Shown here: piece after piece, positions 3,922-53,593 of the stretch
Numbering within the stretch: the first letter of the stretch is position 1
Layout: every line of letters starts with the position of its first letter
Origin: Bdellovibrionota bacterium
GTDB lineage: Bacteria; Bdellovibrionota; Bdellovibrionia; Bdellovibrionales; UBA840
Length of the DNA stretch: 60,551 nt
Direction of reading: 5' to 3'
NCBI GenBank assembly: GCA_036140815.1
Contig: JAYZXX010000046.1
Span: 1 to 60,551, forward strand
The notes under the pieces: generated by a model
The model's database searches: none
What the model was told of the DNA's origin: nothing
What the model saw: the letters and a program-made list of their open reading frames with translations, nothing else
Translations under genes and position numbers: made by a program

Positions 3922-3957
3922 TACGCTATTAGTTTTAAATTTCAGGGGGGATTACTT

Positions 3958-3982
3958 GGAGGCTTAGGGGGCCTCCGTTTTT
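3958..3982 (+). terminator. Hairpin plus T5 between the PrkA-like gene and the giant gene (possible partial terminator/attenuator)
   Basis: GGAGGC-ttagggg-GCCTCC stem-loop (3958-3976), then gTTTTT. The GGAGGA RBS and the ATG at 3993 follow immediately. Confidence 0.35.
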
Positions 3983-3992
3983 GGAGGAAGCT

Positions 3993-35922: not shown

Positions 35923-36307
35923 AATCTTCCTCTCCTAATAAATGAATGGGCTTCTATTATCTAAAGCCCCAACACATATTCCGATTTCCCATTCGCCTGT
36001 TTTAGCCCATATCCTGAAAACCACAATAGATTTCCATCAAATACAATCTATCTAGTTTCCTTCAGTATAGAAAATACCGGTCAAGTATAAGTCAGTCTTT
36101 GGTTAACTATAATACTTGGTAAAAACACTCTTAAATAGGCTATTTTTTTAAGAAAAGGTTAATTTTTCGAATCTATTTGCTGAAATCTAGCCGTTGAAAT
36201 ATTGGGGGAGTGAAAAGCTTTTTTCCAAAAATGAGATATTTTTCTAAATTATATCTCATTACTAGCCGAATAGCTTGGGAATAATCTTAGCTCAAAGGGA
36301 GACAGTT

Positions 36308-37987: not shown

Positions 37988-38257
37988 ATAGATTGTAGTG
38001 CTTATCTTGAGATTGAGTTTTTACTTTCTCCTGTTTTTTGGGATAATAAGTTCATGATAGAAAAAGTGTTAAGGATTAAGAGAGATAAAATATTTTAAAT
38101 TAACAACAGGCGTTAATTTCTCTGATCCCAATTAAGAAAAATTTATTTAAAGAAAACTATTTTTCTAAAAAATAACAGTAATTTACAAGAATATTTTCCT
38201 AATCATTTCAATGAAACACTAAAAATCAAATTCACTTTCTGGCTTTATTTGACAGTT

Positions 38258-38276
38258 TTGACACACTTTGTGTCAA
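38258..38276. promoter_or_regulatory. Perfect 8-bp inverted repeat TTGACACA-ctt-TGTGTCAA upstream of the HTH regulator gene (operator candidate)
   Basis: Read directly. A further TTGACAG half-site precedes it at 38249-38255. It lies about 50 nt upstream of the ATG at 38328. Confidence 0.45.
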
Positions 38277-38327
38277 AAAAGCTTTTTATTTCGTCCTTCC
38301 TGGCTTATCAAACTACTGGAAAGGGGA

Positions 38328-39083
38328 ATGATGGAGATTTCAAGCGATAAGTTTATTAAACATTTGCAACACACTTTAGAGAAAAAGCTAGAGCAAAATC
38401 CTAGCTATTCCTTAAGGGCTTTTGCTGCAAGTTTAAGTGTCGAAGCTTCGTCATTATCTCAAATTCTAAGAGGCAAGCGCCCTCTCAGTGCTAAAATGAA
38501 AATACGCCTATTGAAGGCCCTAGAATTGGATGAAAAAACAATTTCCTTACTATCTGCTCACAAAGCTATAGGTGATCTTGAGCAAAAGGAAAGAGTTCAG
38601 CTTTCTATGGATGCATTCCAATTAATATCAGGGTGGCATCATTTTGCTATTTTAGAACTGATTCACACAAAGGATTTTATTGGCGAACCAAGATGGATCG
38701 CAAAACGTTTGGGAATTCGGCCGATGGAGGTAAATCTTGCTGTAGATAGGTTGGTTCGTCTCGGATATTTAGAGATCAGAAATGGCGCTTGGATTGATAG
38801 AATTGAAACGGCAGAAATATATGCAGACGAGTTTTCATCGGCGGCCCAAAAAAAGTTACAGAAAAATATTTTAGGATTGGCAGGTCAGGCAATTGACAAT
38901 GTTCCCTATGAGGATCGAGTTCAAAGCTCCATGACTCTTGCTGTATCAAAAAAGAAAATCCCGCTATTGCGAAAGCGAGTACGAAAGTTTTTAGCAGAAT
39001 TAGAGAAAGAGTTAGAAGCAGATGAAGATCGTGATGAAGTTTACCAACTAACAAGTGCCATCTTTCCTGTTTCGAAGAGATAA
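38328..39083 (+). CDS. HTH-containing protein, TIGR02147/DUF4423-like putative regulator
   Basis: AAAGGGGA RBS before the ATG at 38328. XRE-type HTH 'YSLRAFAASLSVEASSLSQILRGKRPLS', then 'WHHFAILELIH' and a conserved C-terminal domain. Confidence 0.6.
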   Translation: MMEISSDKFIKHLQHTLEKKLEQNPSYSLRAFAASLSVEASSLSQILRGKRPLSAKMKIRLLKALELDEKTISLLSAHKAIGDLEQKERVQLSMDAFQLISGWHHFAILELIHTKDFIGEPRWIAKRLGIRPMEVNLAVDRLVRLGYLEIRNGAWIDRIETAEIYADEFSSAAQKKLQKNILGLAGQAIDNVPYEDRVQSSMTLAVSKKKIPLLRKRVRKFLAELEKELEADEDRDEVYQLTSAIFPVSKR

Positions 39084-39105
39084 AATTATTAAATTAGGAG
39101 GAATA

Positions 39106-39843
39106 ATGAAATTTATGTTTAGGCTAGTGATGTTTCCAATAATGGTTTTTAGTATTTCAGCCAGTGTATTTGCAAAGACTAGTGGTGGAAGTTACTGCTC
39201 AACCGAATTTTTCCCTGTTGCAGAGAAAATAACAAATGACCTGGTAATGCTAGGTAATAGGCGAGTCAATCGTTGGGTCTCTAATGTAGATGTAAAGAAG
39301 CTTAAAGAAAAATTAGATAGCATGTCCTGCCTTCCGGTGAGAGATTTGGATCAAACTCTAAAAATATATGCTGAAAAAAACTCAGTTGAGTTGCTAGTAA
39401 TCGATTCTTCAAAGGCCGTGGGTTGGGGAAATCTTCAGATCCGAGAAAGGTATGAATTAATTATTCATGCCCTCTTGGTCTTAGCAGGTTTTGAAATTGA
39501 AGTAGAGAATTATTTGTCCATTGCAATTTTAGATCTTCTTAAGAATGAGGTTGGTGGAGAGTATTTTATGCTCGACTTGCAAGGTGAAAAGATAGTTGTA
39601 AATCGAAGAACAAACATTGTAAGCGTACATAAGCCAAGCTTTCAGGGCATGTCTATTTTAGCGAATAGTGCTTATTGTATGTTTTATGGATTAAAGGAAA
39701 TAAAGGTGAAAAGTACCTTTCCTTATAAGGGGCAGGAAGAAATGGGTGTCGCTTTACTTTCAAGAGGTGAGCACTACCATTTTCGATGGGGAAGCGCAAG
39801 TTATGCCACTGAATATTTACATTTGGCTAATTGTGGATTTTAA
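39106..39843 (+). CDS. Exported 4-Cys hypothetical protein, paralog A
   Basis: AGGAGG RBS before the ATG at 39106. Signal peptide 'MKFMFRLVMFPIMVFSISASVFA|KT'. Colinear with the next gene: 'YC..F..A.KI.NDL...GN..V', 'MSC.PV..LD.T.K.Y', 'VELLV.DS', 'L.IH.L.VLAG.E' and a C-terminal 'CG'. Confidence 0.7.
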   Translation: MKFMFRLVMFPIMVFSISASVFAKTSGGSYCSTEFFPVAEKITNDLVMLGNRRVNRWVSNVDVKKLKEKLDSMSCLPVRDLDQTLKIYAEKNSVELLVIDSSKAVGWGNLQIRERYELIIHALLVLAGFEIEVENYLSIAILDLLKNEVGGEYFMLDLQGEKIVVNRRTNIVSVHKPSFQGMSILANSAYCMFYGLKEIKVKSTFPYKGQEEMGVALLSRGEHYHFRWGSASYATEYLHLANCGF

Positions 39844-39956
39844 AAAAAAGTCAGATTCCGTTTACATGTTTGTAGGCGGCTTTTAGATGATTAAAGTGAG
39901 AATGAAATTTTAAGTTTATATAGATGTTTTTATGAAAATATATAGAGGAGAAAATA

Positions 39957-40679
39957 ATGATTAAAATATTATTTCAAATGCTGATTCCTATTCTTTTTAC
40001 GGGCGTCGCAATGGCTGGTAAAGCAAGCGAAGGGGGAGAAAAGTATTGTATGCAGTTCTCGAATATTGCGGGTAAAATAGCAAATGATTTGTTGGCCATT
40101 GGTAATGAAAAAGTTCAAAAAATTGTTCCTGGAATTGATGTTAATGAATTTTGGGAAAGGAAGAAAGTTATGTCGTGCGTTCCCGTAATATTTTTGGATA
40201 GAACGGCTAAAAGCTATCCTTCTTCTAATCAGGTGGAGCTGCTAGTAAATGATTCTATCGAAATTTCTTCTTGGAATGAGCTGTCTAGGATGGAGAAGCA
40301 TAAACTAGTAATTCATGAATTAAATGTATTGGCTGGCTACGAGTTAGATGGGGAGTATTTTTTAAGCGAAAAATTGTTTGAAGTCTTGATGAAAGAACTC
40401 ACACAAGAATATTCCATTTTAAAAATGAAGGGCTCTGAAGTTTCTTTAGATAAAATTAAAAAAACAGTAACTGTGATATCACCGTTTTTCGGAAGCTCCA
40501 ATAATGTTAGTAGTTTGAGTCAGTATTGTCAGTATTTTAATTTACGAGATTTGGGAATGTATGAGACCGAACCTAACAGGTGGGGAGGGGCAATGATTGT
40601 CCTTCATGAAAATGGTGGTTACCATTATTCGGATTCTCCAGGCTTTAAAATTAAATCAGTAACATGTGGCCTTGATTGA
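39957..40679 (+). CDS. Exported 4-Cys hypothetical protein, paralog B
   Basis: GAGGAG RBS. Signal 'MIKILFQMLIPILFTGVAMA|GK'. Same conserved Cys positions and blocks as paralog A. Confidence 0.7.
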   Translation: MIKILFQMLIPILFTGVAMAGKASEGGEKYCMQFSNIAGKIANDLLAIGNEKVQKIVPGIDVNEFWERKKVMSCVPVIFLDRTAKSYPSSNQVELLVNDSIEISSWNELSRMEKHKLVIHELNVLAGYELDGEYFLSEKLFEVLMKELTQEYSILKMKGSEVSLDKIKKTVTVISPFFGSSNNVSSLSQYCQYFNLRDLGMYETEPNRWGGAMIVLHENGGYHYSDSPGFKIKSVTCGLD

Positions 40680-42981: not shown

Positions 42982-43195
42982 AATTAATGTCTATCTAACT
43001 TTAAATAACTGGTTATCTTAGGTGGGCTATGCATCTAGTGGCAAACTAGAAGTCTATATTAAATCAAAGTTTAATGATTTTAATTTTGCAAATGTTGAGG
43101 CTGTCTCATTTTGATACATTCACCTAGACCTTAGTGTATTGTTTTGGCGCAAAATCCTGATTCATTTTGTTTAGTGTCTCGAAGCTATATAAAAT

Positions 43196-46100
43196 ATGAT
43201 CGTGCGCGTATTAAAAGTATTAAAAGATTCAAAAGGGAACACCCTCATTAATGTGCTAATTGGAGCAAGTCTATTAGCAGGGGGTGCTATATTAGTTTCA
43301 CAAGGTGTGGTTAGTTCGAGAAAGACTAGCACACGGCTCAATAAGGCTAGCTCAGGTCAGGTTGCTGCTAAGAACATAATGGATTATATGAAGACGAGAG
43401 ATAACGCTACTCGAACAAGTAACGTTAACTACTACCCTTCCAATCATCCATTTACTGCTGCAGACGGCTCGACGGGAAATGTCGTTGATCATGATCCTAA
43501 AGATGAGTTATCAGGCTATAACTATAGTAGTAGTACACCTGGTACGAATACCGATCCTTTGACCATTTATACCGTCAACCACTCAGGAGCGAGATACTAT
43601 TTTGCCCCTGTTTGGCGTAAAGATACATCAGCTTTGGTGAGTTCAACGGATTGGGTGTTTGAGGCAGCTTCCGCTGGAAGCTTTGATGATGAAGTTTTAG
43701 ATGCAAGTATCACTGATTTTAGAGCCTCATCAGGGCTCCATGAAGAATTGAAGGCGACAGGAGTATGCGGAACTACCAATTTGACTGCAGCCTGTGAAGA
43801 GCAATACGAAAATGATGCAAATATCGTTATGGCCAACTCGATAAATACTTGGCAATCAATGGATGCTTTGATTTCTAGAATGGCCTACTTTTACAATGAA
43901 TATCCTGATTTTTGTACGCAAACCATAGGTTTACCCGTTGTAACCGATAGTAACTACGGTACTGCCATAGACTCTTGGATTGACACAAATAAAACAAATC
44001 GAGGAGACGCTCTAGACTTTTTTGTAGATTTAGTAGACTCTCAGTTGCTCGATATACCTGGTGCTCAGCCAGATACTTTGCAGGTTTTTTTAAAAATTGA
44101 AAAAGAAGATCTTCTCTCTGCGAATAAGGCTACAACATGTAGTGCTGATTTTGAGGCCTTACCTCCAGGCACACAAGCCAGTGCAGGTAACTTAACCAGT
44201 GCTGGTTTACGTGTAACGATTCAGGTGGAGTATGACGAAACTGATGCCAGCGGAAACAATCAAACAAAGGTCGCCATTTTTAGCAACTCCTTTTCTCAAT
44301 CCCGACTGTCTGTTGAACCTGAGGTTTTAGGGGACCCAGTTGTTACGGCTGTGCCTTATGATACCGCGGACCCATATTCGCCCGTTACAACTATCAATCC
44401 AAACGGAAATGATGAATATTGTGGTGAGGTCAGGGAAGGAAGTGGTGATACTGGTTCAGCTCCGATCATGGAAGTGGATACAACTTTGCGAGCCGTTGCT
44501 GGTGTTCCATTTTGTCGTCTAGAATATATGCGACCTGACTACGGAAATTCTTTTCATAATGGAGTACAGTTCGTTGATGCAGGTCAGCCTGATGCTGCCG
44601 CTATTAACTCTGCCATTGAATGGGCCATGGGCTATAAAGACTCTGGTTGGTTTTTATGTACGATGCCACCGAGGGATTTCCAAGCTGGTTTTGATCCTGA
44701 GATTTTAGATATTACTGACCCTTTTGGAAATTCTACGAATTCTGACGGTAAAAAAGGTCTGCGCCAAATGCAAACGGACAACGATCTTTCTACGGTGGTA
44801 TTTGAGAATGTTCGAACTACTTTGGATGAAACAAATCAAAATGTAAAAATGAGAATTAAAGGCTTGTCAGAAGGAGAGTATAAGTTCTCTGTAAAAATCG
44901 TTGATGCAAGTCGATCAGTATCAGACGCAAGAAGCGCAACTTGGAAGGTGGATTTACTTCGACCCTTCGCAATCACAAGAAACATCAGAACCGTGCAAGA
45001 CTCCAACGGACGATATTTAGTGGGTGAGTTTGGTCAGCCTTTAGTGGGCTCAAAACATGTAAATGGTGATGGTGACCCTAGTAATGATTGGGTTCAACAA
45101 TTACCCGGCCAAGGAACTCGTCCAAATGAAATAGCTCTTTTAAACACTCTAAATGCTAATTTTGGTCAATCTTCCGATGGCGAAAGCGGTGAGCTTTATC
45201 AATGTGGTGGAGGGACTCCCATGTTTAATCCACCGGATCAAGCGGATTATGTCCATCTTTACGATGTTCTAGGCGGTGGAGTGAAATGGTATTTCGGACC
45301 AAGTAGGCCAGTTAGTGAAATATATGATAACGGCAGTGGTGATACCATTGAAGACTATTTTAAAAATGGCGCAATTACGGGTACTCCTGATGCTAATGAA
45401 CTCTTGTATACAGATTGTAATTTGGATTCCTCTACTGTAGTTGGACCGTTGATTGAAGCTATAGAAGCGAATAGTGGCGAATATATGGTTGCCATGCAGT
45501 TGTGTGATTTGTGTGGAGATGGTGCACCAAACCAAATGGGATTTAGGTATTGGATTGCTGATTTTACTCCACAAAATAGCTCGGGTTTTACAGTGGAAGT
45601 AAATGGAGGAAACACGAGTTTATCTAGTAATACTTTTAATGTGATGCAATCGGCCGTAGCGCCAGTATTTGAATATGGAATAAGAGTTCAAAAACCAGCC
45701 CACCAGGTTGGCAGATATGCCAATACGAAACCACTTCCTATGGCGGCGGTTTGTGAAGTAGCTAGTGTAGATGCTCCTTTTGATTCCTTTTCAGCGAACA
45801 ATAAAGATAACTATACATATGTGACAGATCGTTTTCATACGAATTATGTGATTGATCCTGTAAATCCAACGGATTTGTACGGAAACCCAAATTGGGTAAT
45901 TGATCCAAATAATCAGTATTCTAGCCATAGTTTTACTTGTAGCCAACCTAATTTAAGTGATGCCTGTCGGGAAGACACCGCTCCACCTATTACTGGAGTA
46001 ATCGCTGGTGCAGCTATTGACGCATGTGGTAGGTTTAGACCAGATAATCCACCAAGCACTAAAGTAGCGATAGATGCTTCTACGGAAGTAAACACCTATC

Positions 46101-49100
46101 AAGTGCGAGGTTATTCTGCGGGCAGTGGAAATGGTCGAAACGACAGATGTAATCAAGTGGATTGTGCTCCTGGTTATTATTGTGACCAAGTGGGAAGTGT
46201 TGGTGGAACTTCAAATCTACCATCCGATGCTGCTGGTGTTTGTCGTGCGCAAGATGAAATCGTTTGGGATAGAACTAATTCTTATGGAGGCCCAGGAACC
46301 CCAGGAGGAGCTCTTCGAAGAACGACTATGGGATTTTTAGGAGGATCACCACCTCCATCTCCTGCTTGTGGGGTTTATGCTGGAACTGATTTTATTGGTG
46401 CCGACTGTGCTTGTGGTTGGGCTAGGGACTGTAATAACAATATTACCGGTTTGGGAAGTTGTAATTCAGCGGCATTAAAATGTACTAATACTGGGATTGA
46501 TTGTAATGCGAACGAAGCATCGGCCGCGGCTTGTTTAATTCTTGGTACTATTGGTGGAACTGGAATTAGTGAATCCGATATCAGTGGACGCCCAAATTAT
46601 ATCAATACGAGTACCTCAATAACGGCATATGCGCCTCTTATGTCAGGTAATACTTTAAATCCAGCAGCATGTTTACCGGATGCAAATTATCGTGGTTATA
46701 TCGGGTACCAAACTGATTATTCAGGGACAGGGACGCCAGCTATTACTTATGCTGAAAGCCTAAGTGCTGGTGAATCTGCGGATTATGATGTTAACGGTGG
46801 CCGTTGCACATGGGCAAAAGGAAATGGTGCTACTTGTGGTTGGGAAGAAACTCGAGATAATGAACACCTTCGTCACCAAACCAATGGTCATGAATGGTGT
46901 GTTGCTGGAACGAATGTTTATGGGGACTGGGATTGGACGACCAACTCTTCTACTAATCATGCTACTTGTGTTAACTTTGCAAGTAATGCTTATACAAACA
47001 ATTCCTGTCTAACTCAACATGGTAGGGCTTGTCGTGACTTAGAATTAAAGCCAGGGCAAACAGATTACAATATTGGTGATGTAATTAACTGTAATAATGG
47101 TAGTTCTCCTGCTCCAAGTGCTCCATCCGGAACTGTTGCTTGGGTTAACAAGGGAGGCCCATACACTTGTGATGGTGATTGGAGTTCAACAGGATCCACT
47201 AGCTGTTCTGGAGGTTTAACTTGGGAATATAGTGGTTCACCAACCACATGTACGGGGACTTGGGTTGCTGGTGCATCTAGTGCCTGTGGCGGGAGTGCAA
47301 TTTGGACTTCTGCTGGATTTGGATGTGATCCTTCTGGTACTCCCTGTACAGGAGGGGCGTCATTAGGCAATGCATGTTCATCGGCAGGGAGCGTTTGTTT
47401 CTATAATACTTCCTGTGGTTCACCAAATTTTTGTCTTGATTCACTAGGTGCAAACTGTGATCCAATGTTACATTGTACTTCACTCGGAGGATCCTGCCCT
47501 GCTGATACTTGTAACTCTTTAGGAAGCCCATGTACGATCGGTGATACTTGTGATGAAATATCAGGTTCCACTCAAACGCTTTATTCTTGTAACGATACCT
47601 CATCTTGTGGAAGTTATAGCACTGGGGATATTCAGGGGGATACATGTTTTACAGCGGGTAATACCACAGCTAGGAGAAATGGTACTGCTGTTCAGAACTA
47701 TGTTTGTTCTTGTGGCTCAGGTGGTAATAGCAATTGTGAGAATTTATCGGATGGTTTCACAGATCCTACATCTCCTCAAGTTGGTTGTACTCAAGATACA
47801 TTTGGAAAAACCTGTAGTAGAACAGATGCGGATACAACCTATAGTTATGAATGTACTGGTTGTGAATTTACAACTTCCTCTTCTCAAACTTATCCTTTCG
47901 CAGCAAGTTCGGGAACTTTTATAAGCGATGCGACCACCTTACCAAGTTGTTCTGATTCAACAAGCTGTACAACATTAGACGATGCTGGAGCTGATGGAAC
48001 TCAAAACACCGGTTATTGTTATGACTCTTCAACGGATAGAATTCACTATCGTGAATGTGAGGTTCAGTCCTGTAGTGTCCCAGCCCTAGAGTGTAACTAT
48101 AACGAAACTAGCCCAAATCCGTGGTCAGATGACTCGAACAATGTTGATATTGACTTCGCAGGTACTTGTATTGCTACGCAAGGTACATGTGATAACCTTC
48201 CAAGTAATGCCGCTTCTGGTCTTGGTACTGACAATGCTTATTGTCCAAACTTAAATCCATTTGGTGTGGATGATACCGTAAGTTGCTCATATTTTGCGGC
48301 TAATTACTGCTCTGGAGAAAGTTTTACCGCTCCAGATGGTGCGGGTGGTACTCTTAACTGTCCAAATGCGGGAGCGTCAACAGCCGCCATGGAATGTTTT
48401 GGAGACTCATCAAATCTTCCAAAAGCAACTTGTTCAGGAGCGCCTGGAACGGTTTGTGTTCCTTTCACTGACTGTACTTCAGCAACTCCATTAAATTGTG
48501 AAGCAAAAGTGGCTTGTGCATCAGACGAGTTGTATTACGCAAATCAAGCAGATTGTTATTCCACGCATGGTTCTTCAAATTGTTCAGCAATCACGGCTTA
48601 CAATTTAGCTGGTGGATATTGTGGAAGAGGTTGTCCAGGAGGAATCCAGTCTTATGCTTCTGAGGCAAGTTGTGAAAATTCGGCCCAACCGAACCATGAT
48701 CTTCAATGTGCTGAAACAAGATCGGGGAGTGGAGTTTGGTGTCCTGCGACTTGCCCAACGGATTCAGGAATGTCTTCAGATCCAAAAGGCTATTCAAGTC
48801 TTACTGCCTGTGAAGATGGCGGAACTTACCAATGTGAAATTAGAAGTTTTATAAATACTAGAACTTCTTCGCAAGCCCCAACGACGACACAGAATACTAC
48901 GACTTATCCTTTAAGAACCTCAGGTACTTCAAACCCTGTAAGTTTGACAGGATTAAGTGGGGCGATATATAGCTCATCTTCTCCTTACTGTAGAATAAGA
49001 CCTGTACAATGTACAAATGCTTGCTGTGCCCCTGATGTGGAGTTTTATGATTGGTCTGATTGCGTTCTCGCCACAGGAAATCCTGCGTCTTGTGGAGCGA

Positions 49101-51175
49101 TCATTGATTCTGGAACTTGTCAGGATAAATCAGGTTGTTCAGGAACAACCTACGCCAGAGATGACGCAAGTTGTGTTGGTTCCACTCCAAATGTTGGAGA
49201 CTCGGTTAGTGCATCTTGTTGTTCAGGTTCAGGATCGTGTTACTACTTGGGTTCCTATACTTATGACAGAGTTGATAATGGGCTGCCAGAGACAGAGGAG
49301 TTATTCTGTACATCCACTGTTGCTGCTAGTGCTACGCCACCGACTGTAACTCCTGCAAGTTGTAGTGGAACTATGGCTTGGGAAAATCCTGGAAGCATTG
49401 AGAATTTTGATTGTGCAACGGCAAATGGTGGGCCTTTCCCTTTATGTCAGACAAACACATCTTGTGGAGTTGAAAATGAAGGTGATTATAGATGTGATGA
49501 TGTTGGATCACAATGTAGGGTGAGAAGATGTAGTTGCTCTGGAACTTTCACCCCTGAACAAACAACATCACCATCTACAAAACAGTGGACAACTGGAAAG
49601 TGTGCCGATGCACCGGAAAGATATAGGGTTGCAACTAGCACAGGTAGTGGATCGACTTGTTCCGAAAATAACGTTGATCGTTGTGAATCCAGAACTTACT
49701 CAGGTGGTCTACCAGGAGTTTGTCAGCAGGTAACGGATCAATTTACAGTTAATTATCATGATGGCACGGGAGCTACCTGTTCTGGTCAGGCTGTGGCTGG
49801 AGAGTGGGGAGCGTGTACGGAGTATGATATTCCAAATGGTGGAAGCTGTCCTCCGGTTGATCCAGATAGATATGAATCTATAGAAGTTTATTGTACACCG
49901 GCCTCGGCAGTTACATGTACGGCAACACCAAACGATTCTTCTGGATATACCGCTCCATGGAGTACGAGTCAGTGGAGTGATGCTGAAACTTACGTAACTG
50001 GAAATGGTTGGCAGATGTGTAATGGTGGTCTTAGTTCTACCACGAATCTGAATGATGCTGGAAACTGTACAAGTGCTCAGAATGGCTCGGTCTGTTACTA
50101 TGCGTATCAATCAGGTAGTGGGCCATCTCTTTACGTTAATGATGCTACTTGTAGCTGTAGCGGAGCACCGTCCACTCCAGCGACGACTTGTTCAGAGTCA
50201 TTCTGTCAAACTAGCTCTGGTGGAACAAACAACCCACCAAGTGCATTTACCTTTGATATTTTCCTGGGAGGAAGTAATACGAGGTACTCTGGTGATTTAC
50301 ACGTAAATATTACTTCTCCTCCAACAGATGCAGATGGTGATACTCTGACTTATACATATTACTTTAGAGCGGGTTGTGAAGATGATGTTGCTACATTTAA
50401 TTATGTGACGAGTTCAGGAACTCCAGGGCCAACAACTTATGGATGGACTAGCTCCGGTACAGCGAATATTACAAGAACACAATGTCAATTGGGCTCTTCC
50501 CACCCTGATCATTGCTCTAATGTAGCTTCTACTTGTACAGATTCATCTGACCTGGGAGAAACTTGTTATCAAAACAGTGCTTTTCCTTGTTCGCCAGGTC
50601 CAAACTCTATGCCTGAGTATACTTGTACTTCTAGCGGTGGAACTACTTTCACTGGTGATGGAACAAATACTACCACTAGCGCTTGTGTGCAAAATCAGTG
50701 GTCAATTCCTTACGGTGACTTCACAGCCCGTTGTACTCCTGGGGATGTAGCTGAGTACATTGTAGCTGTTAGTGTTACGGATGGTACGGATACAGTTTGG
50801 GGGACATCTGGTGGGCAAAACTTTGCAAGTAGGTCTCAGGATACATTGAGTTCAAATAACACTTCCAATATGTGTTCTGCCTCTACCTATTATCGAGTGG
50901 ATTGTGGCGGTTCAGTACAGACCACTGGTCCTAGTGAGAATGGAGAGTCTTGTTCATCTCCACATGGAGACGCCTGTACGGCAGCTCAGAGCGGAGACAA
51001 TATGGGAACCGCCACTTGTACGGAGATTGCCTTGGATTATGGGATTCCACAGCCTAATCACGGTGATGTGACAACGCCAAATTGTTATTGTAGTTCTTGT
51101 GATTATGGCGCTTATGTTAATGGAGACTATAACTCATCAGGAATTAGTGAGCATTATTGTGAAACACCGCCATAA
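43196..51175 (+). CDS. Giant (2659 aa) Cys/Thr/Ser/Gly/Asn-rich surface protein with prepilin-like N-terminal segment
   Basis: A single uninterrupted 7.98-kb ORF. N-terminus 'MIVRVLKVLKDSKG|NTLINVLIGASLLAGGAILV' resembles a type IV prepilin leader plus hydrophobic helix. The C-terminal two-thirds has roughly 7-13% Cys in the stretches I sampled. No SD is visible upstream. Confidence 0.8.
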   Translation: MIVRVLKVLKDSKGNTLINVLIGASLLAGGAILVSQGVVSSRKTSTRLNKASSGQVAAKNIMDYMKTRDNATRTSNVNYYPSNHPFTAADGSTGNVVDHDPKDELSGYNYSSSTPGTNTDPLTIYTVNHSGARYYFAPVWRKDTSALVSSTDWVFEAASAGSFDDEVLDASITDFRASSGLHEELKATGVCGTTNLTAACEEQYENDANIVMANSINTWQSMDALISRMAYFYNEYPDFCTQTIGLPVVTDSNYGTAIDSWIDTNKTNRGDALDFFVDLVDSQLLDIPGAQPDTLQVFLKIEKEDLLSANKATTCSADFEALPPGTQASAGNLTSAGLRVTIQVEYDETDASGNNQTKVAIFSNSFSQSRLSVEPEVLGDPVVTAVPYDTADPYSPVTTINPNGNDEYCGEVREGSGDTGSAPIMEVDTTLRAVAGVPFCRLEYMRPDYGNSFHNGVQFVDAGQPDAAAINSAIEWAMGYKDSGWFLCTMPPRDFQAGFDPEILDITDPFGNSTNSDGKKGLRQMQTDNDLSTVVFENVRTTLDETNQNVKMRIKGLSEGEYKFSVKIVDASRSVSDARSATWKVDLLRPFAITRNIRTVQDSNGRYLVGEFGQPLVGSKHVNGDGDPSNDWVQQLPGQGTRPNEIALLNTLNANFGQSSDGESGELYQCGGGTPMFNPPDQADYVHLYDVLGGGVKWYFGPSRPVSEIYDNGSGDTIEDYFKNGAITGTPDANELLYTDCNLDSSTVVGPLIEAIEANSGEYMVAMQLCDLCGDGAPNQMGFRYWIADFTPQNSSGFTVEVNGGNTSLSSNTFNVMQSAVAPVFEYGIRVQKPAHQVGRYANTKPLPMAAVCEVASVDAPFDSFSANNKDNYTYVTDRFHTNYVIDPVNPTDLYGNPNWVIDPNNQYSSHSFTCSQPNLSDACREDTAPPITGVIAGAAIDACGRFRPDNPPSTKVAIDASTEVNTYQVRGYSAGSGNGRNDRCNQVDCAPGYYCDQVGSVGGTSNLPSDAAGVCRAQDEIVWDRTNSYGGPGTPGGALRRTTMGFLGGSPPPSPACGVYAGTDFIGADCACGWARDCNNNITGLGSCNSAALKCTNTGIDCNANEASAAACLILGTIGGTGISESDISGRPNYINTSTSITAYAPLMSGNTLNPAACLPDANYRGYIGYQTDYSGTGTPAITYAESLSAGESADYDVNGGRCTWAKGNGATCGWEETRDNEHLRHQTNGHEWCVAGTNVYGDWDWTTNSSTNHATCVNFASNAYTNNSCLTQHGRACRDLELKPGQTDYNIGDVINCNNGSSPAPSAPSGTVAWVNKGGPYTCDGDWSSTGSTSCSGGLTWEYSGSPTTCTGTWVAGASSACGGSAIWTSAGFGCDPSGTPCTGGASLGNACSSAGSVCFYNTSCGSPNFCLDSLGANCDPMLHCTSLGGSCPADTCNSLGSPCTIGDTCDEISGSTQTLYSCNDTSSCGSYSTGDIQGDTCFTAGNTTARRNGTAVQNYVCSCGSGGNSNCENLSDGFTDPTSPQVGCTQDTFGKTCSRTDADTTYSYECTGCEFTTSSSQTYPFAASSGTFISDATTLPSCSDSTSCTTLDDAGADGTQNTGYCYDSSTDRIHYRECEVQSCSVPALECNYNETSPNPWSDDSNNVDIDFAGTCIATQGTCDNLPSNAASGLGTDNAYCPNLNPFGVDDTVSCSYFAANYCSGESFTAPDGAGGTLNCPNAGASTAAMECFGDSSNLPKATCSGAPGTVCVPFTDCTSATPLNCEAKVACASDELYYANQADCYSTHGSSNCSAITAYNLAGGYCGRGCPGGIQSYASEASCENSAQPNHDLQCAETRSGSGVWCPATCPTDSGMSSDPKGYSSLTACEDGGTYQCEIRSFINTRTSSQAPTTTQNTTTYPLRTSGTSNPVSLTGLSGAIYSSSSPYCRIRPVQCTNACCAPDVEFYDWSDCVLATGNPASCGAIIDSGTCQDKSGCSGTTYARDDASCVGSTPNVGDSVSASCCSGSGSCYYLGSYTYDRVDNGLPETEELFCTSTVAASATPPTVTPASCSGTMAWENPGSIENFDCATANGGPFPLCQTNTSCGVENEGDYRCDDVGSQCRVRRCSCSGTFTPEQTTSPSTKQWTTGKCADAPERYRVATSTGSGSTCSENNVDRCESRTYSGGLPGVCQQVTDQFTVNYHDGTGATCSGQAVAGEWGACTEYDIPNGGSCPPVDPDRYESIEVYCTPASAVTCTATPNDSSGYTAPWSTSQWSDAETYVTGNGWQMCNGGLSSTTNLNDAGNCTSAQNGSVCYYAYQSGSGPSLYVNDATCSCSGAPSTPATTCSESFCQTSSGGTNNPPSAFTFDIFLGGSNTRYSGDLHVNITSPPTDADGDTLTYTYYFRAGCEDDVATFNYVTSSGTPGPTTYGWTSSGTANITRTQCQLGSSHPDHCSNVASTCTDSSDLGETCYQNSAFPCSPGPNSMPEYTCTSSGGTTFTGDGTNTTTSACVQNQWSIPYGDFTARCTPGDVAEYIVAVSVTDGTDTVWGTSGGQNFASRSQDTLSSNNTSNMCSASTYYRVDCGGSVQTTGPSENGESCSSPHGDACTAAQSGDNMGTATCTEIALDYGIPQPNHGDVTTPNCYCSSCDYGAYVNGDYNSSGISEHYCETPP

Positions 51176-51192
51176 GGCTTAAAAATATCAAA

Positions 51193-51220
51193 AGCCTCGA
51201 CATACTGTCGGGGCTTTTTT
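51193..51220 (+). terminator. Rho-independent terminator after the giant gene (bidirectional; overlaps the stop of the convergent gene)
   Basis: AGCCTCGAC-atact-GTCGGGGCT (9 bp including one G.U) followed by TTTTTT. Confidence 0.75.
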
Positions 51221-52751
51221 AATTGTATTTTTGAATAATCTTTTCAGCTACTTTTATTCCGTCAACTGCAGCACTGGTAATTCCCCCCGCATAACCTGCA
51301 CCTTCACCAGTTGGATAAAGTCCAGCATGACTCACAGATTCTAAGCTTTCTTTGTCACGAGTAATTCGTACGGGACAAGAGGTTCTACTTTCTACGCCAA
51401 AAAGTTGGACGTCATTATCCACAAAGCCAGGCATTTTCTTATCAAAGCTAGTTAGGGCTTCTTTTAAATTTTCACAAATTTCTTTGGGCAACAACTGATT
51501 AAAGTCCACAGCACTGGCACCACTTGGGCAGGAGCCTTTTTCAACAGAACCTATTTTTTCCTTAAGAAAGTCTGTAACTCGTTGGGCGGGAAGCTCATTA
51601 CTTCCAGAGTTTTTTTGTACTTGTTGAAAAGCTTTCTGTTCTAAGTTTTCGCGCCATTTCAAACCAGCAAATTTATCTTGCGAGTCTTTTCCAGGGTCTA
51701 CACTTACGACAATGGCGGCATTGGCAAAAGGGGAGTTACGGCGATAGTTACTCATACCATTTGAAACCACTCCATTAGCTTCTGTACCTGAAGATAATAT
51801 TAGTCCACCGGGACACATACAAAAGCTATACACTCCGGTGGATTTATCTGGGGAATTCCAGGTTAGCTTGTAATTGGCAGATCCTAATTTAGGGTGATCA
51901 TGAAAGTCACGATATTGAATTTTATTAATTTTCGATTGCGGATGTTCGATTCTCAGGCCGACAGCAAAGGGTTTTTGTTCCATAAAAACCCCAATTTCTT
52001 CTAAATGAAAAAACATATCATTGGCTGAATGACCTGTTGCTAAAATTATATCTTCTGAATGAAATACTCGTCCATCTTTGCTCTCACAACCTACGATTTT
52101 ATTGTCTTTTGCTAAGAGTTTTTCTACTTTGGTTTCAAAATAAATCTCGCAACCTTTTTCTTTTAAAAATTCTCTGAGTTTTGGAATCACGCGACGAATT
52201 CGATCAGAACCAACATGGGGATTGGAGAGGTAACGAATTTCTTCTGGTGCACCAAATTGTATTAAGCGATCAAGTACATAAGGGATAAACTCGCTTTTAA
52301 TTCGAGTGATAAGTTTTCCATCGGAATAGAGACCAGCCCCTCCTTCTCCGTAGCAAACATTGTTATCTGGGTCCAATTCGCCATAACGCCAAAAGCGATT
52401 AATCTTTAACATTCGTTGCGCGCATTCTTTTCCTCGTTCTATTAGAATGCAGGGAACGCCTCTTTCCACAAACCGAAGGGCTGCAAATAAGCCTGCTGGT
52501 CCACTGCCAATTATAATGGGTTTTTGCGGCGGCTGGCTTTTGGCATTTTCTAGTGGGAACTCAGGATTTGTAGCCTGTTCATTTTGTTCAAAGACTTCTA
52601 AGCTATAGACCTCGCGAAGTTCATGTCTTTTTCGAGCATCAATGGATTTTCTAAGAATGCGATAAGAAGAATAATTAGGAATATGTCGTTCAACGATTTC
52701 ATCTAAATTTTCATCCAGACGAATTTTAATATTAGTCAGTTTCTGGCTCAT
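51219..52751 (-). CDS. FAD-dependent oxidoreductase (COG2509-like uncharacterised dehydrogenase)
   Basis: Dinucleotide-binding 'IIIGSGPAGLFAALRFVERG', 'GEGGAGLYSDGKL', C-terminal 'GLYPTGEGAGYAGGITSAAVDG'. Confidence 0.8.
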   Translation of the reverse strand: MSQKLTNIKIRLDENLDEIVERHIPNYSSYRILRKSIDARKRHELREVYSLEVFEQNEQATNPEFPLENAKSQPPQKPIIIGSGPAGLFAALRFVERGVPCILIERGKECAQRMLKINRFWRYGELDPDNNVCYGEGGAGLYSDGKLITRIKSEFIPYVLDRLIQFGAPEEIRYLSNPHVGSDRIRRVIPKLREFLKEKGCEIYFETKVEKLLAKDNKIVGCESKDGRVFHSEDIILATGHSANDMFFHLEEIGVFMEQKPFAVGLRIEHPQSKINKIQYRDFHDHPKLGSANYKLTWNSPDKSTGVYSFCMCPGGLILSSGTEANGVVSNGMSNYRRNSPFANAAIVVSVDPGKDSQDKFAGLKWRENLEQKAFQQVQKNSGSNELPAQRVTDFLKEKIGSVEKGSCPSGASAVDFNQLLPKEICENLKEALTSFDKKMPGFVDNDVQLFGVESRTSCPVRITRDKESLESVSHAGLYPTGEGAGYAGGITSAAVDGIKVAEKIIQKYN

Positions 52752-52900: not shown

Positions 52901-52960
52901 CATACATAAAACTACATTTATGTGATTTATAATTGGCATGAAAGCTGCTTAAGAAGGGGT

Positions 52961-53593
52961 ATGCCAAGACTTCCATTAATTTATACCCATGAACTACCGT
53001 ATCACATTACTGCGAGAACAAACAACCAAGAGTGGTTTCAATTACCCCTAAGAGAGGTATGGAATATTTTTACAAGCAATTTAAGGTACATAAATAGAAA
53101 ATTTGGTTTTCAAATTCATGCCTTTGTTTTGATGAACAACCACTACCATTTGATTGGAACCTGCTCTGAAAATCATAATTTAGCTGAGGTGATGGGAGTT
53201 TTTCAAACAATAACAGCAAAGGAAATTAATATAAAATCCGGAAATATAAATCATGTGTACGGAAAAAGATATCGTGCATCTTTGATAGGAGATCAATTTT
53301 ACTATGGAGCTGCCTTGAAATATGTATTCAGAAATCCGGTAACAGCAAAGCTTTGTCCCAAAGTAGAAAATTGGCAGTACTCAACGGTGTCTTCTTTTCA
53401 ATTGAAATCTTATGCAAAAATACCCATATCCTGCCATTACTTTGAAAAACCATTGGTCTTGTTTGAGAAGAATCTATGTTCATGGTTTAACGATGATTTT
53501 TATGACAAGGACTATATAAAAATAAAACAAGGACTATCAAAAAGTCGATTTAAGTTTCCGAAAAGATCTGGAAATCTGGACAGATTTTTATGA
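52961..53593 (+). CDS. REP-associated tyrosine transposase (RAYT; IS200/IS605 TnpA-like Y1 HUH enzyme)
   Basis: AAGAAGGGG RBS before the ATG at 52961. 'YHITARTNNQEW', HUH motif 'LMNNHYHLI', and the Tyr region 'ALKYVFRNPVTAKL'. Confidence 0.8.
   Translation: MPRLPLIYTHELPYHITARTNNQEWFQLPLREVWNIFTSNLRYINRKFGFQIHAFVLMNNHYHLIGTCSENHNLAEVMGVFQTITAKEINIKSGNINHVYGKRYRASLIGDQFYYGAALKYVFRNPVTAKLCPKVENWQYSTVSSFQLKSYAKIPISCHYFEKPLVLFEKNLCSWFNDDFYDKDYIKIKQGLSKSRFKFPKRSGNLDRFL

What the first reader, a model, noticed from the sequence alone, without database searches (positions are those of the whole stretch)
43196..51175. 2659-aa cysteine-rich giant protein with a degenerate prepilin-type N-terminus and no neighbouring pilus genes
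After a basic leader ending in Gly, the N-terminus reads 'NTLINVLIGASLLAGGAILV'. This is the G|FTLIE-hydrophobic-helix pattern of type IV pilins and pseudopilins, with F1 and E5 both replaced by Asn. The first ~880 aa contain few Cys. The remaining ~1780 aa are dominated by C, T, S, G, N and D, with Cys roughly every 8-15 residues and no obvious long tandem repeat. That suggests hundreds of extracellular disulfide-knotted mini-domains. A pilin-like anchor carrying a 280-kDa Cys-rich ectodomain is a plausible prey- or surface-recognition adhesin. I cannot place it in a known family.
Basis: partly seen in the sequence, partly recalled or inferred. Interest (0 to 1): 0.75.

Follow-up and report, generated by a model that had tools for sequence, protein, structure and literature searches.

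The report
Giant cysteine-rich pilin-like surface protein
A 279-kDa protein of a marine Bdellovibrio-like bacterium starts with an altered version of the signal that marks type IV pilus subunits. It then carries a 1,780-residue disulfide-rich region built from exchangeable modules, so it is probably an unusually large pilus-tip or surface adhesin of a kind not yet described.

Summary
The ORF is real: 43196..51175 (+), 2659 aa, with the conserved start probably the GTG at 43202. It has 144 Cys, 132 of them after residue 880, and no Pfam, NCBIfam or PDB match.

It is a conserved single-copy gene at a fixed syntenic position in marine Bdellovibrionota MAGs. It is under purifying selection (dN/dS 0.02-0.3).

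An exhaustive HMMER search found a small family. Three members keep a canonical prepilin motif:
- P0034 and P0060 (G|FGLIE) pass the TIGR02532 and PF07963 cut-offs.
- P0014 (G|VSLTE) is the syntenic ortholog.

The window clade has G|NTLIN at exactly the same alignment columns (hhalign E=1e-27). So the N-terminus derives from a class III signal peptide, with F1 and E5 replaced by Asn. Its hydrophobic helix is almost invariant at the protein level.

The Cys-rich half is a mosaic of ~70-110-aa cassettes that change position and copy number between close relatives.

Best reading (confidence ~0.5): a giant modular minor pilin-like protein that lacks Glu5, so it would sit at a filament tip and display a disulfide-bonded adhesive fibre.

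Main rival: the signal has become an ordinary Sec signal or membrane anchor.

No pilus genes lie in the 60-kb window. Function is inferred, not shown.

The parts
43090..43195 (+). Conserved non-coding leader or promoter region directly upstream of the gene
   Evidence: It is 88-100% identical to the upstream region of the P0002/P0003 orthologs, although synonymous sites inside the gene are saturated (dS>1). No Rfam family matches, and no sigma-70-like site was found in this stretch.
43196..51175 (+). Giant ORF of 2659 aa from the ATG, including the stop codon. The conserved start is probably the GTG at 43202 (2657 aa).
   Evidence: Orthologs of 2014-2714 aa sit at the same syntenic position.
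43196..43237 (+). Basic hydrophilic leader peptide ending in Gly14 (M-IV-RVLKVLKDSKG)
   Evidence: Read directly from the sequence. Gly is conserved in all members except P0010. It aligns with the leader and Gly-1 of the canonical prepilin motifs in P0034 and P0060.
43238..43300 (+). 21-residue hydrophobic segment NTLINVLIGASLLAGGAILVS, equivalent to pilin alpha1-N. Asn replaces Phe1 and Glu5.
   Evidence: The Kyte-Doolittle 19-mer peak is 2.1. The segment is invariant in four orthologs down to 40% overall identity. Over the 27 codons from Gly12 (GTG-start numbering; Gly14 from the ATG), which cover this segment, the window gene and P0004 differ by 17 synonymous and 2 nonsynonymous changes.
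43241..43408 (+). Predicted continuous alpha-helix of ~56 residues (aa 16-71), the length of a pilin alpha1
   Evidence: The AlphaFold2 model built on the 14-sequence alignment has a helix at model residues 14-69. pLDDT is below 50 for the first ~40 residues and 83-78 for residues 51-70.
43409..45835 (+). Conserved, Cys-poor N-terminal body (aa 72-880). This is the family-defining region.
   Evidence: dN/dS is 0.02-0.10. The HMMER profile search found 58 proteins at E<=1e-3, about a dozen of them true family members. The model shows four long strands at aa ~296-385 with pLDDT 77-88.
44468..44965 (+). Beta-sandwich (Ig-like) domain with two conserved Cys and the motif FCRLEY...DSGWFLC...EGEYKFSVKIVDASR...VDLLRP
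   Evidence: About 45 unrelated multi-repeat surface proteins match only profile positions ~550-600. There are weak Big_13, Y_Y_Y and MtxA_IG-like hits. The model is mostly beta-strand here, with pLDDT 73-88. Foldseek returns only low-TM matches to Ig-like adhesin domains.
45836..47260 (+). Conserved Cys-rich section (aa 881-1355), including RNDRCNQVDCAPGYYCD
   Evidence: Identity to P0002/P0003 is 77-85% and dN/dS is 0.03-0.08. Many Cys are invariant across eight orthologs.
47261..51172 (+). Variable mosaic Cys-rich region (aa 1356-2659)
   Evidence: Identity drops to 52-72% and dN/dS rises to 0.10-0.30. Orthologs differ by indels of 67-90 aa. Cys are 89% conserved against 39% for other residues.
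47285..47497 (+). Cassette slot that holds three different cassettes in three close relatives (aa 1364-1434)
   Evidence: P0002 carries here a 67-aa cassette that is 100% identical to one at aa 2331 of P0003; at the DNA level 221 nt are 99.5% identical.
49340..49573 (+). Cassette type A (aa 2049-2126; CSGTMAWENPGS...CSCSG)
   Evidence: It is present at the same place in P0002, at aa 1363-1424 in P0003 and at aa 1048-1123 in P0008. It is absent at this place in P0003.
49574..49909 (+). Cassette type C (aa 2127-2238; KQWTTGKCADAPERYR...EVYCTP)
   Evidence: There is one copy here and two copies each in P0004 and P0008.
49910..50176 (+). Cassette present only in the window protein and P0003 (aa 2239-2327)
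50426..50701 (+). Cassette type B (aa 2411-2502; ...TRTQCQLGSSHPDHCSN...EYTC)
   Evidence: There are two copies in P0002 and single copies at other positions in P0003, P0004, P0006 and P0007.
51190..51218 (.). 13-bp GC-rich hairpin between the giant gene and the convergent FAD-dependent protein gene, probably a bidirectional terminator

Best explanation
The gene encodes a very large modular type IV pilin-like protein specific to a lineage of marine Bdellovibrionota.

Shown:
- It is a real, vertically inherited gene under purifying selection.
- Its first ~35 residues are homologous, column for column, to a canonical prepilin (class III) signal peptide that more distant family members still carry. 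In this clade Phe1 and Glu5 are both Asn.
- The hydrophobic helix is under extreme protein-level constraint.
- The rest of the protein is a conserved ~1300-aa body followed by a ~1300-aa mosaic of Cys-rich cassettes that are exchanged between close relatives.

Inferred mechanism:
1. The basic leader stays in the cytoplasm and the 21-residue hydrophobic helix inserts into the inner membrane through SRP/Sec.
2. A prepilin peptidase encoded elsewhere in the genome cleaves after Gly14. Gly-1 is the critical residue, and Glu5 is not needed for cleavage.
3. The 277-kDa ectodomain folds in the periplasm, with all of its Cys (an even number) in disulfides.
4. Without Glu5 the subunit cannot sit below another subunit's N-terminus. 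Like GspK/PilX-type caps and bulky modular pilins, it would therefore occupy the tip of a type IV filament, one or a few copies per filament.
5. The disulfide-stapled, acidic, Ser/Thr/Gly-rich modules would form a slender, protease-resistant fibre that contacts surfaces or prey.
6. Swapping cassettes would vary its binding specificity.
For: Gene reality and conservation:
- Orthologs of 2014-2714 aa lie in the same slot: heptose epimerase, Abhydrolase_2, GIANT, FAD-dependent protein, SelO, OPT, LolA-like. This holds in five or more independent assemblies.
- dN/dS is 0.02-0.30 along the whole gene.

Pilin ancestry:
- The exhaustive profile search recovered P0034 and P0060, whose N-terminus is KxxRG|FGLIEVLVA.
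- Against TIGR02532 they score 21.4 and 20.8 (cut-off 16.3). Against PF07963 they score 23.1 and 22.3 (cut-off 21.2). JGI names P0034 a prepilin-type N-terminal cleavage/methylation domain protein.
- hhalign of the Asn5-clade profile against P0034+P0060 gives probability 99.8 and E=1.3e-27 over residues 4-588, with the N-termini in register. Against P0014 it gives E=2.4e-23.
- P0014 (G|VSLTE, 2497 aa, 5% Cys) is the syntenic ortholog.
- The weak best NCBIfam hits of the window N-terminus are the pseudopilins GspJ and GspI. The best, non-significant, PDB hit of the family profile is the N-terminus of a Geobacter pilin.

Fit to the class III signal definition (PMC4471445): a 12-14-aa hydrophilic leader, Gly-1, and 21 hydrophobic residues.

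Constraint on the helix: 17 synonymous against 2 nonsynonymous differences over 27 codons.

Long helix: AF2 predicts a helix of 56 residues starting at the putative cleavage site.

Tip logic from the literature:
- Glu5 mutants are processed and can be co-assembled into filaments (PMC4471445).
- Bulky modular pilins fit only at the tip (PMC8179133).

Disulfides:
- All 9 full-length members have even Cys counts.
- Cys are 89% conserved against 39% for other residues.
- Cys spacing is regular.

Mosaic structure: cassette indels, changes of position and copy number, and a 221-nt cassette 99.5% identical at sites 2.9 kb apart in two genes that are otherwise 97-100% identical.

Precedent for a lone tip-pilin gene away from pilus loci in a BALO: tadG in B. 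bacteriovorus (bioRxiv 10.64898/2026.07.08.737194).
Against: - The window protein fails both prepilin HMMs and lacks Glu5 and Phe1.
- No pilus, T2SS or Tad gene lies in the window or next to any family member examined.
- A pilin beta-meander head packed on the helix could not be confirmed. The model has pLDDT below 50 over the first 40 residues and over 100-171, and Foldseek found no pilin.
- Known Glu5-less caps carry hydrophobic residues at position 5, not Asn (own knowledge).
- In the Asn5 clade the hydrophobic stretch ends in S/T-x-G, a possible signal peptidase I site, whereas the Glu5 members have Phe or Tyr there.
- It is unexplained how a 277-kDa ectodomain would pass a secretin.
- Adhesion and prey recognition are untested.
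- No window of the gene has dN/dS above 1.
Confidence: 0.5

Rival explanations
1. The class III signal has decayed into an ordinary Sec-type signal. After the loss of Phe1 and Glu5, the N-terminus works either as a long class I signal peptide cleaved by signal peptidase I after S-Q-G37, or as an uncleaved N-in membrane anchor. The Cys-rich protein is then a periplasmic, envelope-spanning or otherwise exported fibre that has nothing to do with pili.
For: - The window protein fails TIGR02532 and PF07963.
- Every Asn5-clade member has small residues at -3 and -1 at the end of the hydrophobic stretch (SQG, TQG, SSG, SLG, SQS). The Glu5 members have SQF, SQY or TFY there. The two changes are therefore correlated.
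- No pilus genes are nearby.
Against: - Cleaved signal peptides normally drift. Here the 27 codons from Gly-1 to just past the end of the hydrophobic helix show 17 synonymous but only 2 nonsynonymous differences against an ortholog of 40% overall identity, and the segment is invariant in four orthologs.
- The hydrophobic core is 19-21 residues and the c-region only 3, which is atypical for class I signals (own knowledge of signal peptide architecture).
- Gly-1 and the basic leader are retained.
- Arg and Lys follow 5-6 residues after the putative class I site.
Confidence: 0.28
2. The class III signal is functional but the protein is not a pilus tip adhesin. Either it is the GspK-like cap of a type II secretion pseudopilus, or, like the Sulfolobus bindosome proteins, it uses a type IV filament machine only to be placed on the cell surface without forming part of a long filament.
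For: - The weak N-terminal hits are to the T2SS pseudopilins GspJ, GspI and XpsI. For P0060 the hits are GspI (3.7e-5) and ComGE.
- Class III signals on non-filament surface proteins are documented (the bindosome; PMC4471445).
- GspK is a Glu5-less modular pseudopilin (PMC8179133).
Against: - These hits cover only the shared N-terminal helix. None reaches a cut-off other than the generic motif models.
- There is no GspK domain hit.
- No gsp genes are nearby.
- A 277-kDa cap inside a periplasmic pseudopilus is hard to accommodate (inference).
Confidence: 0.15
3. The Cys-rich region is not disulfide-bonded adhesive modules. It is instead a metal- or redox-active thiol-rich polymer, for example for metal sequestration.
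For: The region is 7.4% Cys with high Cys conservation.
Against: - The protein has an export signal, so it sits in the oxidising periplasm or outside the cell.
- Cys counts are even in 9 of 9 members.
- CC and CxC spacings are depleted rather than enriched (7 against 18.7 expected), the opposite of metallothionein-like proteins.
- No His/Cys metal motifs were seen, and there is no HMM hit.
Confidence: 0.04

Closest known systems
Modular type IV pilins (Streptococcus sanguinis PilB and PilC; survey of IPR012902-containing proteins, Raynaud et al. 2021, PMC8179133)
   Same: An N-terminal pilin-type signal and helix carries bulky C-terminal modules. Because of the bulk, these proteins are predicted to sit at the filament tip and mediate adhesion.
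   Different: - The largest modular pilin in that survey was 860 aa. This protein is 2659 aa.
- Its added part matches no known domain.
- It lacks Glu5 and fails the IPR012902-type models.
- The organism is diderm, so the protein would need to pass a secretin.
Glu5-less capping minor pilins (GspK of the T2SS; PilX/PilK of T4aP)
   Same: They lack Glu5, are larger than other minor pilins through inserted domains, and are thought to top the tip complex (PMC10191384, PMC8179133).
   Different: - There is no sequence match to the GspK/PilX families.
- Position 5 is Asn rather than a hydrophobic residue (own knowledge).
- No partner minor pilins are encoded nearby.
- This protein is about ten times larger.
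Large tip minor pilins of Tad/Kil pili in predators (Myxococcus KilN, TadG; lone tadG of Bdellovibrio bacteriovorus)
   Same: These are large pilin-like proteins that expose variable domains at the pilus end in predatory bacteria. Interchangeable 'Tips' are linked to prey range (PMC12075869). In B. bacteriovorus the gene can lie away from the pilus locus (bioRxiv 10.64898/2026.07.08.737194).
   Different: - The family's canonical motif is of the T4a/T2SS/Com type (G|FxLIEVL), not the TadE/F/G type.
- There are no Tad Pfam hits.
- Variation here comes from cassettes inside one gene, not from alternative gene clusters.
CofB/TcpB trimeric tip minor pilins of type IVb pili, and the non-pilin tip adhesin PilY1
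   Same: They are big tip-located adhesion or adapter proteins built from a carrier part plus effector domains.
   Different: No sequence or detectable fold similarity was found. PilY1 has no pilin N-terminus.
Bacterial Ig-like surface repeats with the motif ...F.C.LDG....C.SP...L.dG.H.F.VRA.D.AGN....W.VD...P (weak Big_13 / Y_Y_Y)
   Same: Residues ~425-590 share this motif with ~45 otherwise unrelated multi-repeat surface proteins.
   Different: There is a single copy here, embedded in a family-specific body. No Pfam model reaches its cut-off.

Membership tests
Type IV pilin / class III signal peptide proteins (TIGR02532, PF07963, IPR012902) | Hydrophilic leader of 6-26 aa ending in Gly (definition from PMC4471445) | tested here: met
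   The leader is MIVRVLKVLKDSKG, 14 aa from the ATG or 12 aa from the conserved GTG. Gly is conserved in all members but one.
Type IV pilin / class III signal peptide proteins (TIGR02532, PF07963, IPR012902) | About 21 predominantly hydrophobic residues directly after the Gly | tested here: met
   The segment is NTLINVLIGASLLAGGAILVS, with a Kyte-Doolittle 19-mer peak of 2.1.
Type IV pilin / class III signal peptide proteins (TIGR02532, PF07963, IPR012902) | Glu at position +5 | tested here: not met
   Position +5 is Asn in the window protein and throughout its clade. Glu is kept in P0014, P0034 and P0060.
Type IV pilin / class III signal peptide proteins (TIGR02532, PF07963, IPR012902) | Score above the curated cut-off of the motif HMMs | tested here: not met
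   Neither model is listed for the window protein even at E<=10. Homologs P0034 and P0060 pass both models, and P0014 is below the cut-off.
Type IV pilin / class III signal peptide proteins (TIGR02532, PF07963, IPR012902) | Homology of the N-terminus to bona fide prepilin motifs | tested here: met
   hhalign gives probability 99.8 and E=1.3e-27, with the N-termini aligned in register.
Type IV pilin / class III signal peptide proteins (TIGR02532, PF07963, IPR012902) | An alpha1 helix of ~50 residues with a beta-meander head packed on its C-terminal half | tested here: inconclusive
   AF2 predicts a 56-residue helix and, later, four long antiparallel strands.
Type IV pilin / class III signal peptide proteins (TIGR02532, PF07963, IPR012902) | Cleavage (and N-methylation) by a prepilin peptidase, and a type IV filament machinery in the same genome | not testable with these tools
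   Only 60 kb of the genome is available and it contains no such genes.
Glu5-less tip-capping minor pilins (GspK, PilX/PilK) | Sequence membership of the GspK or PilX families, and adjacency to partner minor pilins | tested here: not met
   There are no GspK or PilX hits, only weak GspJ/GspI N-terminal hits at E 0.017-0.12. No pilin-like ORF is found nearby.
Tad pseudopilins (TadE/TadF/TadG) | TadE-like N-terminal motif or Tad Pfam domains | tested here: not met
   No such hits were found. The family's canonical motif is of the GFxLIE type.
Class I (Sec) cleavable signal peptide | Small residues at -3 and -1 after a hydrophobic core | tested here: met
   S-Q-G37 follows the hydrophobic stretch. 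Small residues occupy these positions in all Asn5-clade members but not in the Glu5 members.
Class I (Sec) cleavable signal peptide | Short hydrophobic core (about 7-15 residues), and sequence free to drift between orthologs | tested here: not met
   The core is 19-21 residues. There are 17 synonymous against 2 nonsynonymous changes over 27 codons. No dedicated predictor such as SignalP was available.
Known Cys-rich repeat or adhesin families (e.g. Myxococcus cysteine-rich repeat, EGF-like, other Pfam/NCBIfam Cys-rich repeats) | Match to a curated repeat or domain model | tested here: not met
   There were 0 families for the whole protein and for the two C-terminal ~900-aa pieces at E<=10, and no PDB sequence match at E<=1.

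The most novel reading that the evidence does not exclude
Marine Bdellovibrio-like predators carry a single giant tip pilin whose ectodomain is a disulfide-stapled fibre assembled from interchangeable Cys-rich cassettes. Intragenic cassette exchange would re-tune prey or surface specificity. This would be a bacterial counterpart of phage tail-fibre mosaicism and of the interchangeable Kil 'Tips' of Myxococcus. The conserved Asn1 and Asn5 in the membrane helix, replacing Phe1 and Glu5, would drive a new mode of docking or oligomerisation at the filament tip.
Probability: 0.2. Interest if true: 0.85.

Novelty: new variant of a known kind. Interest (0 to 1): 0.6.

Why it matters
How Bdellovibrio-like predators recognise and hold prey is only partly understood, and type IV and Tad pili are required for invasion.

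If this protein is a pilus-tip subunit, it would be about three times the size of the largest modular pilin in the 2021 survey (860 aa, PMC8179133). It would also show that a filament tip can carry a ~280-kDa disulfide-rich fibre through a diderm envelope.

The cassette exchange seen between near-identical strains offers a concrete, testable source of variation in binding specificity. The conserved Glu5-to-Asn change gives a natural experiment on what position 5 of pilins does.

If instead the signal has become a Sec signal, the family documents the evolutionary conversion of a class III signal peptide into a class I one.

In either case it defines a protein family with no annotation at present.

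Tried and rejected
- **Pfam, NCBIfam and PDB:** Pfam and NCBIfam on the whole protein, Pfam on three pieces at E<=10, and both libraries on the first 80 aa at E<=10 gave nothing above cut-off. PDB sequence searches with the protein and with profiles found nothing significant.
- **AlphaFold2, first attempt:** residues 1-1000 with a 3-sequence alignment failed (pLDDT 27).
- **AlphaFold2, second attempt, and Foldseek:** the 14-sequence model (pLDDT 64.6) gave Foldseek matches only to generic Ig-like adhesin domains, with TM 0.1-0.15, in both the PDB and viral libraries. No fold assignment was made from these.
- **Word-index homolog searches:**
  - The full protein found only 3 relatives.
  - The 84-aa N-terminus found nothing (a wasted search).
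  - The 8-ortholog profile found nothing new.
  - Only the exhaustive HMMER search reached the informative relatives.
- **Collection scans:**
  - Genome contigs gave 1 locus.
  - Metagenome contigs gave 1 further locus, after the 14-sequence alignment was too divergent to use.
  - Viral contigs gave none, so the gene is not phage-borne.
- **Internal repeats:** self-BLAST for tandem repeats gave only weak matches driven by composition. Cys autocorrelation showed no long period.
- **Split-gene idea, rejected:** the 504-aa P0010 is not the front half of a split giant gene. The next ORF (2354 aa) has its own full pilin-like N-terminus, so P0010 is a short tandem paralog.
- **Nearby proteins in relatives, rejected as partners:** the LamG_3 lipoprotein and the LysM-like protein near the gene in relatives have lipoprotein or Sec signals, not pilin motifs.
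- **Regulatory scans:** the sigma-70 promoter scan of the upstream region was uninformative, and Rfam found nothing in the whole window.
- **Pseudogene or spurious ORF, rejected:** dN/dS and synteny rule this out.


Full report
**1. The observation**

The region 43196..51175 (+) is one ORF of 2659 aa. It begins MIVRVLKVLKDSKG|NTLINVLIGASLLAGGAILVSQGVVSSRK.

- It has 144 Cys: 12 in residues 1-880 and 132 in residues 881-2659, with a mean gap of 13.3 residues.
- Residues 881-2659 are 56.5% C+T+S+G+N+D. The protein is 278.8 kDa with pI 4.2.
- The Cys spacing is more regular than chance. Gaps of 5-13 residues occur 78 times against 48 +/- 5 in shuffles, and CC/CxC spacings are depleted (7 against 18.7). 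There is no long-range period.
- Self-BLAST shows no clear tandem repeat.

Orthologs have ATT/ATA where the window has ATG, and the database gene call is 2657 aa. The conserved start is therefore the GTG at 43202, which gives a 12-aa leader. A strong hairpin at 51190-51218 separates the gene from the convergent downstream gene.

**2. Surroundings**

The window contains no pilus, T2SS or Tad gene. Its annotated genes are:

- a hybrid kinase;
- PrkA-like, AAA_5 and SpoVR-DUF444 genes;
- an M23 peptidase and a PIF1 helicase;
- a cbb3 oxidase cluster with FixG, a DsbD_2 protein and a P-type ATPase;
- a PAS kinase and a sigma-54 activator;
- TrmO and SpoU;
- an insertion holding an RCC1-like protein and a TIGR02147/DUF4423 protein;
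- ADP-heptose epimerase, then Abhydrolase_2, then the giant gene;
- an FAD-dependent protein, a RAYT transposase, a SelO-like protein, an OPT transporter and a LolA-like protein.

**3. Relatives and their location**

The word-index search found only three relatives: P0002 and P0003 at 73-74% identity, and P0004 at 40%. The close ones come from Tara Oceans assemblies and from the MAG 'Bdellovibrionaceae bacterium UBA6502' (phylum Bdellovibrionota).

The exhaustive HMMER search with a profile of residues 1-1000 found more:

- P0006, P0007 and P0008 (2014-2098 aa);
- P0014 (2497 aa);
- shorter members P0005, P0010, P0015, P0025, P0034, P0042 and P0060;
- about 45 unrelated surface proteins that match only a ~40-residue Ig-like motif at profile positions 550-600.

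P0002, P0003, P0006, P0014 and the 2354-aa protein of locus L014 all sit in the same slot: epimerase, Abhydrolase_2, giant gene, FAD-dependent protein, SelO, OPT, LolA-like. This is a vertically inherited core gene of the lineage.

Every source name is 'hypothetical protein' from a Bdellovibrionota, Bdellovibrionales or Bdellovibrionaceae MAG. The exception is P0034, which JGI names a 'prepilin-type N-terminal cleavage/methylation domain-containing protein'. The metagenome scan added one locus and the viral scan added none.

**4. The N-terminus**

The family N-termini are:

| Member | Motif around the Gly |
|---|---|
| window, P0002, P0003, P0004 | G\|NTLIN |
| P0006 | G\|STLIN |
| P0007, P0008, L014 giant | G\|ATLTN |
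| P0042 | G\|SSFLN |
| P0010 | A\|STILN |
| P0014 | G\|VSLTE |
| P0034, P0060 | G\|FGLIE |

P0034 and P0060 exceed the curated cut-offs of both prepilin models. Against TIGR02532 they score 21.4 and 20.8 (cut-off 16.3). Against PF07963 they score 23.1 and 22.3 (cut-off 21.2). P0014 is just below, at 13.5.

A profile of the Asn5 clade aligns to P0034+P0060 with hhalign probability 99.8 and E=1.3e-27 over residues 4-588. The N-termini are in register: G14 on G-1, N15 on F+1, N19 on E+5. Against P0014 the E-value is 2.4e-23.

The degenerate motif is therefore the evolutionary descendant of a canonical class III signal peptide. The syntenic ortholog P0014 still has Glu5, so the change to Asn happened within the orthologous lineage and was then kept.

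The window protein itself meets three parts of the published definition (PMC4471445): a hydrophilic 6-26-aa leader, a terminal Gly, and about 21 hydrophobic residues. It fails on Glu5 and on both HMMs. Its only weak hits are the pseudopilins GspJ and GspI. The best, non-significant, PDB hit of the family profile is the N-terminus of a Geobacter pilin.

The helix is under strong protein-level constraint. Between the window gene and P0004 (40% overall identity), the 27 codons from Gly12 (GTG-start numbering; Gly14 from the ATG) differ by 17 synonymous and only 2 nonsynonymous changes.

An AlphaFold2 model built on 14 family sequences (pLDDT 64.6, pTM 0.67) predicts one continuous 56-residue helix starting right after the Gly. 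Four long strands follow at ~296-385, and a beta-rich domain at ~420-585. The first 40 residues have low confidence. Foldseek returned only low-TM Ig-like adhesin domains and no pilin. The pilin head fold is not established.

**5. The body**

Residues 72-1355 are well conserved: 77-88% identity to P0002/P0003, apart from one 69% window (aa 153-302), and dN/dS 0.02-0.10. Residues 1356-2659 drop to 52-72% identity with dN/dS 0.10-0.30. No window of the gene exceeds dN/dS of 1.

Cys are 89% conserved between the window protein and P0004, against 39% for other residues. All nine full-length members have an even number of Cys: 144, 138, 136, 132, 122, 116, 126, 124 and 38. This fits complete disulfide pairing in an exported protein.

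The variable half is modular.

- Orthologs differ by indels of 67-90 aa.
- At least three cassette types recur at different positions and copy numbers.
- P0002 and P0003 are 97-100% identical over most of their length. They diverge sharply in two blocks, where dS also jumps. That is a sign of replacement by recombination rather than point mutation.
- A 67-aa cassette is 100% identical at residue 1364 of P0002 and residue 2331 of P0003. At the DNA level, 221 nt are 99.5% identical at sites 2.9 kb apart.

**6. How it most likely works**

Shown:

- It is a real gene, conserved and restricted to one lineage.
- Its N-terminus is derived from a class III signal and is under strong constraint.
- It has a Cys-rich ectodomain with the hallmarks of disulfide pairing.
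- Cassettes are exchanged between close relatives.

Inferred:

1. The protein inserts into the inner membrane through the hydrophobic helix.
2. A prepilin peptidase cleaves after Gly14. Gly-1 is the critical residue and Glu5 is always dispensable for processing (PMC4471445).
3. The subunit is incorporated at the tip of a type IV filament. Tip complexes are capped by a subunit lacking Glu5 (PMC10191384), Glu5 mutants co-assemble but cannot homopolymerise (PMC4471445), and bulky modular pilins fit only at the tip (PMC8179133).
4. The disulfide-stapled modules would make a thin, stable fibre that binds surfaces or prey, with cassette exchange varying specificity.

Large minor pilins that expose variable domains at pilus tips are linked to prey range in Myxococcus (PMC12075869). 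A lone tip-pilin gene away from the pilus locus exists in B. bacteriovorus (bioRxiv 10.64898/2026.07.08.737194). I put this reading at about 0.5.

**7. Rivals**

(a) Conversion to a Sec-type signal or anchor, about 0.28.

- All Asn5-clade members have S/T-x-G(S) at the end of the hydrophobic stretch, which fits the -3/-1 rule. The Glu5 members have Phe or Tyr there. This correlated change is the strongest point against the pilin reading.
- Against the rival: the helix is far too conserved and too long (19-21 residues, with a 3-residue c-region) for a typical cleaved signal.

(b) A functional class III signal used for a T2SS cap, or for bindosome-like surface placement, about 0.15.

(c) A thiol or metal function, about 0.04. 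This is contradicted by the even Cys counts and by the depletion of CC/CxC spacings.

**8. Comparison with what is known**

The protein works most like a modular minor pilin or a Glu5-less tip cap. It cannot be filed as a member of the type IV pilin signature families, because two defining features were tested and not met: Glu5 and the HMM cut-offs.

It matches no Cys-rich repeat family. The largest modular pilin in the 2021 InterPro survey was 860 aa (PMC8179133).

I rate it a new variant of a known kind: a pilin-derived carrier with an undescribed giant mosaic Cys-rich cargo and a conserved Glu5-to-Asn change.

**9. Verdict**

Interest 0.6.

Noticed in passing
window 43090-43201: The ~110 nt upstream of the giant gene are 88-100% identical to the upstream region of the orthologs P0002/P0003, although synonymous sites in the gene are saturated. 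This is a constrained leader or promoter. It contains TTGGCGCAAAATCCTGATT, an imperfect sigma-54-like -24/-12 pattern. No Rfam family matches.
   Followed up: partly
L014 10001-18772 (Tara scaffold_4): The syntenic slot holds two family genes in tandem. One is a short paralog of 504 aa (P0010), with Ala instead of Gly before the hydrophobic helix. The other is a full giant of 2354 aa with its own G|ATLTN N-terminus.
   Followed up: partly
L011 10001-12081: P0034 (552 aa, canonical prepilin motif) is followed immediately by an ORF whose product continues into the family's Cys-rich region (...DAVDGCGRPS...). The gene is probably longer and is broken by a stop codon, a frameshift or an assembly error.
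   Followed up: no
window 36275-40679: This block is absent from the syntenic loci of relatives (L001, L004, L009). It holds a 570-aa protein with a weak RCC1-like hit, a TIGR02147/DUF4423 HTH protein, and two ORFs without any family hit. It looks like a lineage-specific insertion.
   Followed up: partly
window 52922-53593: A REP-associated tyrosine transposase (RAYT, IS200-like) lies where the relatives carry an 872-aa Laminin_G_3 lipoprotein and a 363-aa LysM-like protein.
   Followed up: partly
window 1459-12511: An unusual PrkA-type cluster of three genes: an 820-aa PrkA-like protein, a 1764-aa protein with only an AAA_5 hit, and a 1078-aa protein that fuses SpoVR-like and DUF444 regions. 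In other bacteria these two regions are usually separate genes (own knowledge).
   Followed up: no
window 44001-52000: The G+C content of the giant gene (0.42-0.445) is clearly above that of its flanks (0.35-0.39). Given the conserved synteny, this probably reflects the Gly/Ala/Ser/Thr/Cys/Pro-rich composition rather than recent transfer.
   Followed up: no
L012 8659-15515 and L001 19478-22096: Laminin_G_3-containing proteins lie close to family genes in two unrelated contexts. A 986-aa LamG_3 + CCP_MauG protein sits next to P0069, and an 872-aa LamG_3 lipoprotein sits two genes from P0003. This may be coincidence. P0069 also lies directly downstream of a flagellar gene cluster.
   Followed up: no
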